Of a stretch of DNA of 64,000 nucleotides, positions 57,301 through 63,300 are shown piece after piece. Where the stretch lies: assembly GCA_965153285.1 (NCBI GenBank), contig OZ229116.1. The stretch is one strand, 5' to 3'. A program made the position numbers. The stretch comes from Podarcis tiliguerta. Its lineage: Eukaryota. The stretch's first letter is position 1; the number at the start of each line of letters is the position of its first letter.

Positions 57301-60300
57301 TGCAACCCGAGGTACTAAGGGTTACCAGAGTTTGTAACCTAAAGCATTTGTAACCCGAGGTACTACTGTACGTGAATTCACAGTCTCATACCATTTAAAA
57401 CAGTAATGGCTTCCTCCAAATAATACTGGGAGCTAAGAGTGTTGATAGTTGTTAGAAGACCCCTATCTCTTCCAAGCTACAATTCCCAGAGTGGTTTAAT
57501 AATTAGGTAATCCTTTCACAAGGAACTCTGGCCATTGCAGCTTCTAACAATTCTGTACCCTTAACAAACTACAGTTCCCAGGATTCTTTGGAGGAAGCCA
57601 TGACTGCTTAAAGTGATATCACAGTGCTTTAAATTTAGGGTGGGCATGTGGCCTGAGTTGGACTGTGCTACAGGGTTGGTATAACGCATGAGAGAAAGTG
57701 CATTGAGCTTGGATCAGTTTGAAACCACACATGACAGCACTGAAATGGTAACTTTAAATGTAGGAAGTGCCAGTTCCTGGTTTTGAAGGTCCCCTGGGCA
57801 AAGTTGTCTGCTGTCCTCCGGCTATCGATTCACTTGCCAGTCCCTCTAGCCCCAGAAAGAACCACCTCTGAGAAAGTGAGGGAAAGAGAAAAGGTGAGCA
57901 AGGTGTGTGCAAGTTACTCCTCTCATCATTTGGTCACTCAGCGATGGCAAGTGAACAAGCAAGAACATCGAGGAGGAGGAGAGCAGGGCTAAAAGGCTGT
58001 GGGGATTTGCATTGGGTTCCATACTGGAACATGGGGTAGGGCAAGAAAAAGGCTGCAGCTAAGAGATACAGCATCTGCTGTGCATGTAGGAGGTTCAGTC
58101 CTCAGCATCTCCAGGTGGATGTGTGAAGTTCGCAGTATGAAACAGTGGAGAGCCACTGCTGGTCAGTGCAGATATTGATGAGCTACATGGATCAATGGCC
58201 TGCTTTGGTATACGGTAGCTTCCTATGTTTTAATGCTACTGACCTCTGGCATAAGCCCTGAATGGAGCATTTTGTCCTTGCAAACACAGGTGAAGGCATG
58301 CTGAATGCTCCCTTGACAAAAGTGTTCTCTGAAGAGTCACTTTACTCCCTGTACAGGTGTCAGATGGGGAGCACAGGCTCATGCACAATTTATGAATGGG
58401 TGATCTCTAGGCTTGTGGTTCTTTGATCAAGCAATAGGTAAGCTGAAGGAGTCTTTTCCAGTAATCACTATTTTACTAGTGCAATGAAAATCAAGGTAGT
58501 TGAGTATAGTCAAACTAAATCTCCAAGAGCTTGTTCAGTATGATTTTCCCCCCTAACTCAGACTGGAGAAAAAGGATTATTTCCAAATATGAAATATTGC
58601 TGCTTCTGAAAAATATATGGTATCATTAAATGATTAAATGACTTGTAAGGACACAGTCCACATCTATTTCCACCGGAAAGTGGAATGCAGAACAAGTGGG
58701 TTATTTGTTGTGTCCTATACCCTTAAAGACTGTAAATCTTTATTTCTTTTTGAGTTACCGGTATTTTGCAAATACATACAAATCAAAACTTACAAACATG
58801 AAAAAGGGGATTTTTTTTAAAAAAAGATTACAAAAAAGAGAAAAGAAAAAGAAAAATTCCTTCATTATTAAGCTAAGACTTTGCAAACCAAACACATATA
58901 TTTTAAACAATTGCCTCTTACATATTGTCTATTTTCCTATGAAGCTGACACTTCTTAGGTATTCATATTCTTTTGCTCTTAAGACTTCCATTAGTCTCAC
59001 AACAGTTCATTATTCCTAATTAAAACCCGCTTATCTGTATTTCAGTACATCCCTCATCTTGGTATCAGGGAGCTTTTTACCTTTGCAGAGTTATTCTAGA
59101 CACAACCAAGTCTTCACTGCTGAACCTTGGCTCATCAGATATTTATTTAGGTACTCCCATTCTTTCTTAACGGTCTTATTTGACTTGTCTCTTATGATAT
59201 CTGTCAGCTTCGTGAGTTGCAAGTACTCACTCAGTTTACACAACCATTCCTCTTGGGTGGGTATGTGTTCCTCCTTCCAATATTTAGCCACCAATACTCT
59301 TGCTGCTGACGTAGCATAGAGAAATAGTCTTATTTTTTCTTTGGGGAAATTGTTTGTCAAAATTCCCAAGAGAAATGCTTCGGGTTTTTTACAAAATGTA
59401 CTTCTTAATAATTTCTTCAACTCTTCATAGGTCATGTCCCAGAATTTTTAAATTTCTGGGCATGCCCACCACATGTGATAGAAGGTTCCTACTTGATTTT
59501 TGCACCTCCAACACATTATTGTGAGTTTTACTGATTTTTGCCAGCTTTACAGGGGTCAAGTACCACCTGTATTGCATTTTCATAAGATTCTCTCTTATTA
59601 AATAACAAGCTGTGAATTATATATTTTTTTGTCCATAATTATTTCCACTTATCAAGTTCAATCACATAGCCTGTCCTGATCCCATTTTCTCATCCCATTT
59701 TTTATTTCTTCATCTTTCAATTGCCAGCCTATCAGTAATCTATGTATTTTAGATAGTGTCTTTTGATTATTGTATATCTTTCTCCAGATTTGATAATTCA
59801 TTATCAAAGCCCTGCAATCTTTTATCTTTTTCAAAGACGGCATTCAGTTGATGAAATTCTAATCAAGTTAATCCCATCTTTTTAATTTCTTCAAAGCTCT
59901 TCAATTTTGGGCAGTTTCCACCCAAAAGTAGAATGCAGATCAAGGGGGTTATTTGTTGTGTCTTACACCCTCAAAGACTGTAAATCTTATGAAGATACTA
60001 CGGATGGAAGTTCAGGAGAGTAAGATTCTCATTTGTCCAGCCACTAGCTTCAAGAAACCTCCATCTTTTCCCTCACTTCATGCCCCCACCCTGAAATTCT
60101 TTTATCTTTTCGGGGCCACTAGGTGGCGCGTTGGAAGATGGCCGACAATAACATCTCTCTGACCCATACGAGGTATTAAGGGGCTGCTATGGGAAGTAGG
60201 CAGCCTTCCTAAACCCCCCCAAGGGCATGGGGGGGCCTGCCCTTGCCAGCGGTGTTCAATGCACCCCCTGATCCGAGAGACGGGGGTGTGGAACACTTGG

Positions 60301-63300
60301 CACAAGCCCTCGATGGATTCAGATCTTCCCGACGCCGATTCCAATCAGCGCGTGCTGGTTGCTTCAGTCTGGAATTATATTTGGACTAATTGGCGATAAT
60401 GGATTGGAAGAAAGACTGAAGCACATATATCAAGTAAGGCTCGAGATAAGGACTGCTGACTAATGCATCTCTGTGACCGGGAGCGACGGATGGATAAGTA
60501 AATCTCTTGATGAATTACCACCATGAGAACGTAAGGCTGGAACGAAGGGGGGGTGGAGGGAAAAACCCTCTTAAATTCCTTCACATGATATGATTACAAT
60601 AATCCTCCACCCCAGAAAGAAACAAGATCGTCGCGTTTTAAATAACATAAACAGAACTTTAAAACTGTGTGGGGAAAGGATTACAATACGAGAAGATTGA
60701 AAGGCGAGAAGGAGGAAAATTCTTATGACGCAGTTAAAAAAACATGGCGTCTCGCAAAGACAGGCTAGCAGGAGAACAGACGAGGGGGAGGAGATTCAGG
60801 AATTTGAAAAAGAAAGAAGGCTGGAATGCAAGTTGGACCTGACAGAGCCCCCGATATCGTTTGATTTATGGCTAGCCTGGGAAAAATAATGGACCGACCG
60901 AAGGCTGACAGAGGTCGCTCCTGAATAATATGAGTTTGGCAGAGCATACCCACACAGAGACGCTAAATCTTCAATCTGTTTGTGGAAACCATCAGAGACC
61001 GCAAAGAAAGGAATAAATGATAACAACAAGAAGAGAAAGAAGGTAATAAAGATCTATCCGAATCGAACTGGATGGAACTGTCGAATAAAAGCAGCAAATA
61101 AGTGATGTCTGGAGTCATCTGGAATTTTGGACTCGTGCTGAGCTTGATATATGGGTACCCCCAAAAAATTTTAAAATTTGGCTGTATAATTTGGAATTAA
61201 TGTGATTTGAACAATGTGATGTGATTGGCCTATTAATAAAAAATTATTGAAAAAAAAAAAAAAAGAAATTCTTTTATCTTTTCAATCTGCTTCCCCTTTA
61301 ATTAATAGCCAATATCTTTTGGAGAATTTGTAGTCAAAATGTATTTGTACACATTCTAAAACCCCTCTTTCATAAGGCACTGAAACTGAATTCGTTGCTA
61401 TTTGTAAAGCACCAGCCACCAATGGACAATGACTGATTTTAAGAACACCATCCCACCATAAACTAAGTGTAATATCACCCCCTAGTGTTCTCCTTCTTTT
61501 TACAGAAGTCCCCAACCACAGCAGCATCCTCAAAGCTCTACATGCAGCTGTTGCCCACAGGCCGGAGAATGACCTCCGTTAAGAACTAAGGAATTATTCC
61601 TCTTTGTTTTACTTTTGGAAGATCTAGGAGATGATTCTTTTTAATCTTCTAGACCACTGGTCCTGTTAGCTAGGGATGATGGGAGTTGTAGTCCCAAAAC
61701 ATCTGGAGGGCCGAATTTGGAGATGCCTGTTCTAAAATGATGGCATTTCCTTTCAGAGTCCTGATTTTGACTGGCTGATACTCATGTTGTAGAGTTATTT
61801 TGTTTACTGGCATCTTGCTTACTGCTCATTTTAATCATTGCAACTTTATTTCCCCATCCCTCTTTATTACTGTAAGCCACTTTGACTACGTTGGGCAAAA
61901 AATATAAAATATATTTTTGTAAGATATAAAATTTTAAAATGCGTATGCCAAAGCATATGCCACAACAGAGAGGGGTTTTTTTTTGGGGGGGGGGCACAAC
62001 TACCAATTATTAAAATCAGTAGTAAGCAACATAAGAGCAAAGGGTGGTATCCAGTTTAGGCTGGAATCCTAACCCTAGTTACTTGGGTGATCAGTGGACC
62101 TTACTGCTGTATAGACATAGTTTTCTTTTCTTTTTCTTCCAAGTAAATGTATTGAAATCAATGGACTTACATTATTACTAATTTTAAAGTCTCTTGATTT
62201 CCATGGGCCTACTCTTTGAGTATGGCCACCCAAGCAAAATTAACTAGGATATACTCACATACTACAAATATATTATATATAACAGTGGTTCCCAACCAAC
62301 CCACCTAGACCACTTGCAAACTGCTGATGGTTTTGGAAGACAACTTCATGATTTTTCTGCCTGTTGCACCAATGCCTTGGACTCTTGGCTCTCCCTGCAT
62401 GACTTGGAATTGAACTCTCACCACAGTAGGCAGTTTTAAATGCTTTATTTAAGTCAGTACAGCAACCCAACATGAGTCTACAGGTTACAAAGCCACAAGG
62501 CATTGCAGAGATATGATGCAAGGCTATGCATAAGCTAAGATGTTCCAGCAATTGCTATGTCCCCTGCAATCTTATTTTGAAGAGCAGGGCAAGTACAGCT
62601 ATTTGCTCAGTTGACATCCTGGGACATGGGACTGGGCCGGGATGTGAGTACTCCCCCATAGATGCTAGAACTGGAAGGTTTCGTTTATACCAGTGCTATC
62701 ACCTCCACATCCTCAGAGACAAAGTCACTGGTTCACCATCAGATTTATCCCTAGGTGCCTCCCTTCGCTGACACAGGAAAGTGCCCAAAGTGCCCCCAAC
62801 CTCAGGAACTTAGGCAGTGGGCCACTTGCTCCCCACTTCTGCTATCCAGCAACAGGCTTCTCACAGCTTTCATTTAAATATACACAATGGTAGTCATTTC
62901 AAGTAGGTTCTCAGCTGTAGCACTGTTAATCTTAAGTAAAGGTAAAGGTACCCCTGCCCATACGGGCCAGTCTTGACAGACTCTAGGGTTGTGCGCCCAT
63001 CTCACTCAAAGAGGCCAAGGGCCAGCGCTGTCCGAAGACACTTCCGGGTCACGTGGCCAGCGTGACATCGCTGCTCTGGCGAGCCAGAGCCGCACACGGA
63101 AACGCCGTTTACCTTCCCGCTAGTAAGCGGTCCCTATTTATCTACTTGCACCCAGGGGTGCTTTCGAACTGCTAGGTTGGCAGGCACTGGGACCGAACAG
63201 CGGGAGCGCACCCCGCCGCGGGGATTCGAACCGCCGACCTTTCGATCGGCAAGCCCTAGGCACTGAGGCTTTAACCCACAGCGCCACCCGCGTCCCTCCG

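What the first reader, a model, noticed from the sequence alone, without database searches (positions are those of the whole stretch)
60093..61283. Intact 1.15-kb poly(A) retroposon with no RT ORF: candidate uncharacterised non-autonomous L1 partner family
Seen: a perfect 19-bp TSD, a GGGG start, a CpG-rich 5' region, a purine-rich middle with only short broken reading frames (e.g. MASRKDRL...WT* from 60744), then AATAAA and A15. I see no tRNA A/B-box head and no RT motifs. Established: long TSDs with pure poly(A) tails are the signature of L1 target-primed reverse transcription. Inference: this is either a young Pol II-driven non-autonomous element (an L1 5'UTR/3' deletion derivative or HAL1-like) or a retrocopy of a cellular non-coding transcript. 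It is too long for the SINEs and too short for the LINEs in this window.
Basis: partly seen in the sequence, partly recalled or inferred. Interest (0 to 1): 0.68.

Follow-up and report, generated by a model that had tools for sequence, protein, structure and literature searches.

The report
ORF-less poly(A) retrocopy in wall lizard
A young 1.15-kb insertion made by reverse transcription of a non-coding, polyadenylated RNA; the mechanism is ordinary, and whether it belongs to a repeated family could not be tested.

Summary
A 1,153-bp insert (60112-61264, + strand) is flanked by a perfect 19-bp duplication. It starts with GGGG and ends in AATAAA, 9 nt, then A15.

It has no tRNA head, no Rfam family and no Pfam domain in 6 of 6 frames. 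Stop codons are at random density in all three sense frames, and the longest ATG ORF is 54 aa. No credible protein relative turned up.

This is a young insertion, by L1-type target-primed reverse transcription, of a non-coding Pol II transcript. HAL1, SINE, SVA-type and coding processed-pseudogene readings fail.

New points:
- CpG o/e is 0.72 along the whole body, against 0.21 for the rest of the window.
- The 5' end holds the window's only strong CTCF-type motif and only YY1-type box.
- Length, GC and CpG count fall in the range published for Anolis clade-1 L1 5'UTRs, but their conserved 5' motifs are absent.
- The window is Podarcis-like.

The central claim, a repeated family, is untested. 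There is one copy in 64 kb and no lizard DNA collection or Dfam/Repbase was available. I favour a replicating ORF-less lineage (about 0.6) over a one-off lncRNA retrocopy (about 0.3).

The parts
60093..60111 (.). 5' copy of the 19-bp target-site duplication
   Evidence: the repeat finder D1, 100% identical to 61265-61283
60112..61249 (+). Body of the retrocopy (1,138 nt): non-coding, GC 44.8%, A 32.9%, 40 CpG (o/e 0.72)
   Evidence: Sequence. Composition and CpG ranking. No Pfam, Rfam or tRNA. No tandem repeats. No other copy in the window.
60116..60129 (+). CTCF-type motif CCACTAGGTGGCGC at +5 to +18 of the element
   Evidence: It is the only match to the recalled consensus CCASYAGRKGGCRS in 64 kb; 0 of 100 shuffles give a match. 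Sixteen contiguous nt (60114-60129) equal the core of a published CTCF 'super motif' (passage read). Binding was not tested.
60135..60144 (+). YY1-type box AAGATGGCCG at +24 to +33
   Evidence: It is the only match to AAGATGGCSG in 64 kb; 5 of 100 shuffles give at least one match. The motif is recalled from the human L1 5'UTR. The YY1 initiation site of mammalian L1 is mentioned in PMC5381506.
61235..61240 (+). Polyadenylation signal AATAAA that was used, 9 nt before the tail
61250..61264 (+). Pure A15 tail
61265..61283 (.). 3' copy of the 19-bp target-site duplication

Best explanation
A 1,138-nt non-coding RNA, made by RNA polymerase II and cleaved and polyadenylated 9 nt after AATAAA, was copied into this site in trans by an L1-type ORF2 protein.

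The steps of target-primed reverse transcription would be as follows. The bottom strand was nicked at a T-rich site (5'-GAATTTC/AGGG-3' on that strand). The poly(A) tail was primed there. The cDNA ran to the 5' end of the RNA. A second nick 19 bp away produced the duplication.

Shown: the anatomy, the lack of coding capacity and the youth of the insertion. Inferred: the polymerase, L1 as the partner, and the source.

My commitment on the source: the RNA came from a low-copy, ORF-less retroposon lineage that carries its own 5' promoter module (YY1-type box, CpG-rich, L1-5'UTR-like in gross make-up). It did not come from an ordinary host gene.

Probabilities: retroposition of a non-coding poly(A) RNA about 0.9. 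A replicating lineage as source about 0.6, split roughly evenly between an L1 5'UTR derivative and an unrelated family.
For: Insertion anatomy: perfect 19-bp TSD; AATAAA + 9 nt + A15.

Youth: TSD 19/19 and an uninterrupted tail. By contrast the older L1 fragment next door has a 66/75 duplication and CpG o/e 0.22.

Non-coding:
- Stops are 22, 16 and 24 in the three sense frames against 23.7 expected; the longest ATG ORFs are 54, 46, 36 and 32 aa.
- Pfam finds 0 families in 6 of 6 frames.
- Frame 2 against 1.84 billion representatives gave 3 hits at E<=1e-3 and 0 at E<=1e-10. All three are repeat-inflated matches to unrelated repetitive proteins.
- Frames 1 and 3 against proteins of 30-210 aa gave 0 hits among 60 and 329 candidates.

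Not Pol III or a known RNA: 0 tRNA. Thirteen Rfam matches at E<=10, all far below gathering score, the best 19.7 against 40 bits.

L1 is present in this genome: an ORF2 C-terminal remnant with a CCHC motif lies 58742-59914 on the minus strand. L1 of all vertebrates studied ends in AATAAA plus poly(A) (PMC5381506, passage). L1 mobilises other poly(A) RNAs (PMC5753468, passage).

For a replicating lineage:
- CpG o/e 0.72 over the whole length, the highest of 629 sliding windows; 26 CpG observed against 7.1 expected downstream of 60400.
- Unique YY1-type and CTCF-type motifs within the first 33 nt.
- Body length 1,138 nt, GC 44.8% and 40 CpG, against Anolis clade-1 L1 5'UTRs of 1,268 +/- 198 nt, 45.2 +/- 2.9% GC and about 56 CpG.
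- A- and purine-rich sense strand, as in lizard L1.
Against: - No second copy or fragment in the 64-kb window, and no genome-wide count was possible, so 'lineage' rests on composition and motifs only.
- The conserved 5' termini of Anolis L1 are absent from the 5' end. The clade-1 motif has 0 matches at up to 3 mismatches. The clade-2 motif has 6 matches in the window, none at the 5' end.
- No similarity to the only L1 3' end at hand: best match 24 nt, E 0.21.
- The last 250 nt lack the poly-pyrimidine or T-rich tract said to be present in lizard L1 3'UTRs.
- The nick site is only a loose match to the recalled L1 consensus TTTT/AA.
- A CpG-island promoter with YY1 and CTCF sites just after the start site is also common in host genes (recalled).
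- Frames 1 and 3 were not searched against proteins longer than 210 aa.
Confidence: 0.55

Rival explanations
1. One-off retrocopy of a host long non-coding RNA, or another non-coding Pol II transcript, from a CpG-island promoter. It would be an ordinary processed retrosequence, not a family.
For: Single copy in the window. The 5' 289 nt are GC 0.56 with YY1- and CTCF-type motifs, as in many host promoters (the link to promoters is recalled). No sequence is shared with any repeat of the window. L1 mobilises any poly(A) RNA.
Against: CpG o/e stays at 0.70-0.83 through the AT-richer 3' 860 nt, with 26 CpG against 7.1 expected at background. That is unusual for non-coding exons of a single methylated locus. 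The purine skew of 63.4% is the most extreme 700-bp stretch in the window.
Confidence: 0.3
2. ORF-less derivative of a lacertid L1. Either a 5'UTR-only transcript ended by premature polyadenylation, or an internally deleted or spliced L1 RNA (SpIRE-like) joining the 5'UTR to a 3' end.
For: Length, GC and CpG count lie inside the published range of Anolis clade-1 L1 5'UTRs. There is a YY1-type box near the start. The sense strand is A-rich. GC of the last 250 nt, 0.32, is like the lizard L1 3'UTR mean of 33%. SpIREs are documented in human (PMC5860796, abstract only).
Against: Anolis 5'-terminal consensus motifs are absent. There is no similarity to the neighbouring L1 3'UTR. No poly-pyrimidine or T-rich tract. 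No remnant of ORF1 or ORF2.
Confidence: 0.3
3. Processed pseudogene of a protein-coding gene.
For: Size and poly(A)/TSD anatomy fit a short mRNA.
Against: The insertion is young, yet no frame is depleted of stops and no ATG ORF exceeds 54 aa. There are no Pfam hits and no protein relatives.
Confidence: 0.03
4. Retrocopy of a foreign RNA (viral mRNA or a horizontally arrived element), which would explain the undepleted CpG.
For: CpG o/e is 3.4 times the window background. There are no relatives in any library searched.
Against: There is no ORF at all. The canonical nuclear AATAAA was used. Host-type promoter motifs sit at the 5' end.
Confidence: 0.05

Closest known systems
L1-mediated processed retrosequences (retrocopies of poly(A) RNAs)
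   Same: TSD, AATAAA, pure poly(A) tail, full-length copy of a Pol II transcript, no need for sequence shared with the LINE.
   Different: No coding parent is recognisable. CpG is undepleted over the whole length. The parent locus is unknown.
SVA / LAVA composite retroposons of hominoids
   Same: It works like them if it is a family: a Pol II transcript of about 1-2 kb, no ORF, CpG-rich, moved in trans by L1, with TSD and poly(A) (PMC3287187 and PMC5174737, abstracts; PMC5753468, passage).
   Different: No hexamer repeat, no VNTR and no SINE- or LTR-derived module. TRF finds no array in the element, and no window repeat lies inside it. Different host clade.
HAL1 (half-L1)
   Same: Non-autonomous, L1-dependent, of kilobase size.
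   Different: HAL1 encodes ORF1p (PMC5753468, passage). This element encodes nothing.
Lizard clade-1 L1 5'UTR (Anolis; Boissinot and Sookdeo 2016)
   Same: Length 1,138 nt against 792-1,465; GC 44.8% against 39.5-49.7%; 40 CpG against about 56; an ATGGC-type box some 20-30 nt from the start.
   Different: The conserved terminus GACTTCCGGTG-N8-ATGGCG is absent. No ORF1 follows; the element ends in its own poly(A) site.
CTCF-site-bearing retroposons (e.g. rodent B2 SINEs; recalled)
   Same: A strong CTCF-type motif is carried inside a retroposed unit.
   Different: Those are Pol III SINEs in very many copies. Here there is one copy, and binding is untested.

Membership tests
L1-type TPRT retrocopy | Target-site duplication of about 7-20 bp flanking the insert | tested here: met
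   19 bp, 19/19 identical
L1-type TPRT retrocopy | 3' poly(A) tail preceded by a polyadenylation signal | tested here: met
   AATAAA at 61235-61240, then A15 at 61250-61264
L1-type TPRT retrocopy | Nick at a T-rich site resembling TTTT/AA (consensus recalled) | tested here: inconclusive
   The bottom strand reads ...GAATTTC/AGGG: three T and a C before the nick, then AG after it. This is a loose match only.
L1-type TPRT retrocopy | L1 present in the same genome | tested here: met
   ORF2 C-terminal remnant with CWRC...H...C on the minus strand at 58742-59914. The L1 call rests on a recalled motif plus a weak Atlas lead, zf-RVT at 0.78. Pfam and PDB were silent.
Repeated (transposable-element) family | Two or more colinear copies with different flanks | not testable with these tools
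   One copy in the window. No eukaryotic DNA collection, Dfam or Repbase was available. A scan of bacterial and archaeal contigs with a 22-mer gave 0 hits, which is uninformative.
HAL1 | Encodes ORF1p only | tested here: not met
   Longest ATG ORF 54 aa; stops at random density; 0 Pfam families
SINE | Pol III head from tRNA, 7SL or 5S; length under about 600 bp | tested here: not met
   ARAGORN 0; no Rfam match near gathering score; 1,153 bp
SVA-type composite | Hexamer repeat, VNTR, and SINE- or LTR-derived modules | tested here: not met
   No tandem array within 60093-61283 among the 15 TRF rows. No window repeat lies inside.
L1 5'UTR derivative | Conserved lizard L1 5' terminus (Anolis clade 1 or clade 2 consensus from PMC5381506) | tested here: not met
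   Clade 1: 0 matches at up to 3 mismatches. Clade 2: 6 matches in the window, none at 60112. Caveat: these are Anolis motifs and the window is Podarcis-like.
L1 5'UTR derivative | Sequence identity to a 5'UTR or 3'UTR of an L1 of the same genome | tested here: inconclusive
   Against the one L1 3' fragment in the window there was no match (best 24 nt, E 0.21). No full-length Podarcis L1 was available.
Processed pseudogene of a coding gene | Recognisable parent protein in one or more frames | tested here: not met
   Frames 1 and 3 were searched only against proteins of 30-210 aa.

The most novel reading that the evidence does not exclude
A young, still active, lacertid-specific non-autonomous retroposon family of about 1.15 kb. 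It would be Pol II-transcribed from an internal YY1-type promoter, ORF-less, moved in trans by L1, and unrelated in sequence to SINEs or to known composite elements. Every full-length copy would carry a near-consensus CTCF site at its very 5' end, so each new insertion could seed a new CTCF site in Podarcis chromatin.
Probability: 0.2. Interest if true: 0.65.

Novelty: new member of a known kind. Interest (0 to 1): 0.35.

Why it matters
As it stands this is one more L1-type retrocopy, an ordinary kind of event. It is still useful evidence that L1 machinery has been active recently in a Podarcis-like genome and can move RNAs in trans.

It would matter more if genome-wide searches show a family. 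Squamates would then have a counterpart of the hominoid SVA lifestyle: a Pol II, ORF-less L1 parasite. That family would also disperse strong CTCF-type sites, a process so far described mainly for mammalian SINEs (recalled).

The undepleted CpG over 1.1 kb is the feature most in need of an explanation.

Tried and rejected
- Other copies in the window: blastn with word size 7 and E<=10 gave only the self-hit plus matches of 29 nt or less.
- Rfam at E<=10: 13 chance-level matches.
- Pfam on six read-through frames: nothing.
- Pfam on 104 window ORFs of 80 aa or more: one RVT_1 fragment just under cut-off (28.4 against 29.6 bits) and two weak sub-threshold matches.
- Full-library protein search with frame 2: 3 spurious hits to repetitive proteins.
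- Word-indexed searches with frames 1 and 3, shorter proteins only: none.
- PDB search with the CR1-type fragment and with the L1-like ORF: nothing useful.
- Six-frame Pfam scan of 42.7-64 kb: stopped by an output limit and not repeated, so exons near the insert, and whether it lies in an intron, remain unknown.
- 22-mer scan of bacterial and archaeal contigs: 0 hits, uninformative.
- TSD hunt for a second poly(A) tail at 55991-56010: none found.
- Literature: searches (listings) showed no described ORF-less L1-dependent family in lizards. This is not proof of absence.
Supplements were closed, so the Anolis L1 sequences in the supplements of PMC5381506 could not be aligned.
- The window is not human-like (best matches are to Podarcis).
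Full report
**Observation**

I read 59800-61600 and ran a repeat search on 59900-61500. The only long direct repeat is a 19-nt sequence at 60093-61111's left end, 60093-60111, and again at 61265-61283, 100% identical. Between the two copies lies a 1,153-bp insert (60112-61264).

The insert begins with GGGG. It ends with AATAAA (61235-61240), nine further bases, and 15 uninterrupted A (61250-61264). 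Three more AATAAA lie in the last 250 nt.

**Composition**

- The body (60112-61249) is 44.8% GC and 32.9% A.
- The middle 700 nt are 63.4% purine, the most skewed 700-bp stretch of the window.
In fact the 40 CpG are spread along the whole body.
- CpG o/e is 0.72 against 0.21 for the rest of the window. The sliding windows that cover the element rank first among 629.
- Downstream of 60400 there are 26 CpG where 7.1 would be expected at the background ratio (P=4e-8).

**Coding capacity**

- The three sense frames carry 22, 16 and 24 stops, against 23.7 expected from base composition.
- The longest ATG ORFs are 54, 46, 36 and 32 aa.
- Pfam finds no family in any of six read-through frames at E<=10.
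- Frame 2 against 1.84 billion representative proteins gave three hits at E<=1e-3 and none at E<=1e-10. All three are repetitive proteins matched several times over and are unrelated.
- Frames 1 and 3 against proteins of 30-210 aa gave nothing among 60 and 329 candidates. Longer proteins were not searched for these two frames; the stop density argues against a hidden ORF.
- ARAGORN finds no tRNA-like head.
- Rfam at E<=10 gives 13 matches, all far under their gathering scores.
- TRF reports no tandem array inside the element.
- The 5' 289 nt fold more stably than all 200 shuffles (z = -3.07). I record this but cannot interpret it from a single sequence.

**The 5' end**

- Positions +5 to +18 (60116-60129) are the only match in 64 kb to the recalled CTCF consensus CCASYAGRKGGCRS; 0 of 100 shuffles give any match.
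- Sixteen contiguous bases equal the core of a sequence that a 2026 preprint uses as a CTCF 'super motif' (doi 10.64898/2026.09.16.752217, passage read).
- Positions +24 to +33 are the only match to a YY1-type box AAGATGGCSG; 5 of 100 shuffles give at least one match.
- The resemblance to the YY1 box of the human L1 5'UTR is recalled. A YY1 initiation site in mammalian L1 is mentioned in PMC5381506.

**Surroundings**

- Nothing in the window resembles the element.
- A CR1-type reverse-transcriptase remnant lies at 48254-49346. Its 200-aa ORF is 98% identical to a Podarcis raffonei protein and 96% to a P. muralis protein. The window therefore comes from Podarcis or a close relative.
- Just upstream, on the minus strand, 58742-59914 is a 5'-truncated L1-like 3' end. 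It has ORF2 C-terminal ORFs with CWRC...H...C, a stop, and a 352-nt AT-rich 3'UTR with a T-rich tract.
- That fragment is flanked by a 75-bp duplication, 66/75 identical, and its CpG o/e is 0.22. It is a much older insertion.
- The L1 label rests on a recalled motif and a weak Atlas lead. Pfam and PDB were silent.
- The element shares no sequence with this L1 end: best match 24 nt, E 0.21.
- The element's insertion site lies 103 bp from this older insertion.

**Mechanism**

A long TSD, a used AATAAA and a pure poly(A) tail are the marks of target-primed reverse transcription of a polyadenylated Pol II RNA by L1 ORF2p. L1 of all vertebrates studied ends this way (PMC5381506), and L1 moves other poly(A) RNAs (PMC5753468).

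The nick site is T-rich but only loosely like the recalled consensus. The perfect TSD, the intact tail and the undecayed CpG all say the insertion is young.

**Source of the RNA**

A coding parent is very unlikely, because a young copy would keep an ORF. HAL1 is excluded because there is no ORF1 (definition). SINE and SVA-type architectures are excluded.

Two classes of source remain: a replicating ORF-less lineage, or a one-off copy of a host non-coding RNA.

I favour the lineage at about 0.6, for three reasons:
- CpG is kept at three to four times background even in the AT-rich 3' part. This is expected for the active line of a retroposon but not for exons of a single methylated locus.
- The strand is A- and purine-rich, as in lizard L1.
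- Length (1,138 nt), GC (44.8%) and CpG count (40) sit inside the ranges given for Anolis clade-1 L1 5'UTRs: 792-1,465 nt, 39.5-49.7% GC, about 56 CpG.

Against an L1 origin:
- The conserved Anolis 5' termini are missing.
- The 3' part has no poly-pyrimidine or T-rich tract.
- There is no match to the neighbouring L1 3'UTR.

**What could not be done**

- No lizard genome, Dfam or Repbase was available, so copy number, parent locus and the empty orthologous site are all untested.
- A 22-mer scan of bacterial and archaeal contigs found nothing, as expected.
- The collections metagenome contigs and viral contigs, and paper supplements, were closed. The Anolis L1 sequences in the supplements of PMC5381506 could bear on the 5'UTR comparison.
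- A six-frame Pfam scan of the neighbourhood failed on an output limit and was dropped. I cannot say whether the insert lies in an intron.

**Verdict**

The mechanism is an ordinary L1-type retrocopy of a non-coding RNA. The family claim stays open. Interest is moderate to low as it stands, and higher if step 1 of the next steps finds a family that carries the CTCF-type site.

Noticed in passing
window 58742-59914 (minus strand), flanked by 58667-58741 and 59915-59989: A 5'-truncated L1-like 3' end: ORF2 C-terminus with a CCHC motif, a stop, and a 352-nt AT-rich 3'UTR with a T-rich tract. It lies between an unusually long 75-bp direct duplication (66/75 identical). CpG o/e is 0.22, so it is much older than the finding.
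   Followed up: partly
window 48254-49346 (+): A CR1-type reverse-transcriptase remnant with frameshifts and a (CT)31 array at 48345-48406. Its intact 200-aa C-terminal ORF is 98% identical to a Podarcis raffonei protein, which places the window in or near Podarcis.
   Followed up: partly
window 55942-56010 (+): A second pure poly(A) run (A20 at 55991-56010), about 45 nt after an AATAAA. It may be the tail of another retrocopy. No target-site duplication was found.
   Followed up: partly
window 57179-57370; also 12409-12593, 21286-21470, 21946-22132, 36725-36839, 51226-51424: A short interspersed repeat of about 190 bp with several copies at 77-81% identity, probably a SINE.
   Followed up: no
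window 62933-63297; also 25271-25627, 32841-33191, 43151-43503: A GC-rich repeat of about 365 bp in four copies at about 78% identity. It accounts for the other CpG-rich spots of the window.
   Followed up: no
window 60112-60400 (+): The 5' 289 nt of the element fold at -121.4 kcal/mol, z = -3.07 against 200 shuffles, none of which fold as well. The meaning is unknown without further copies.
   Followed up: no
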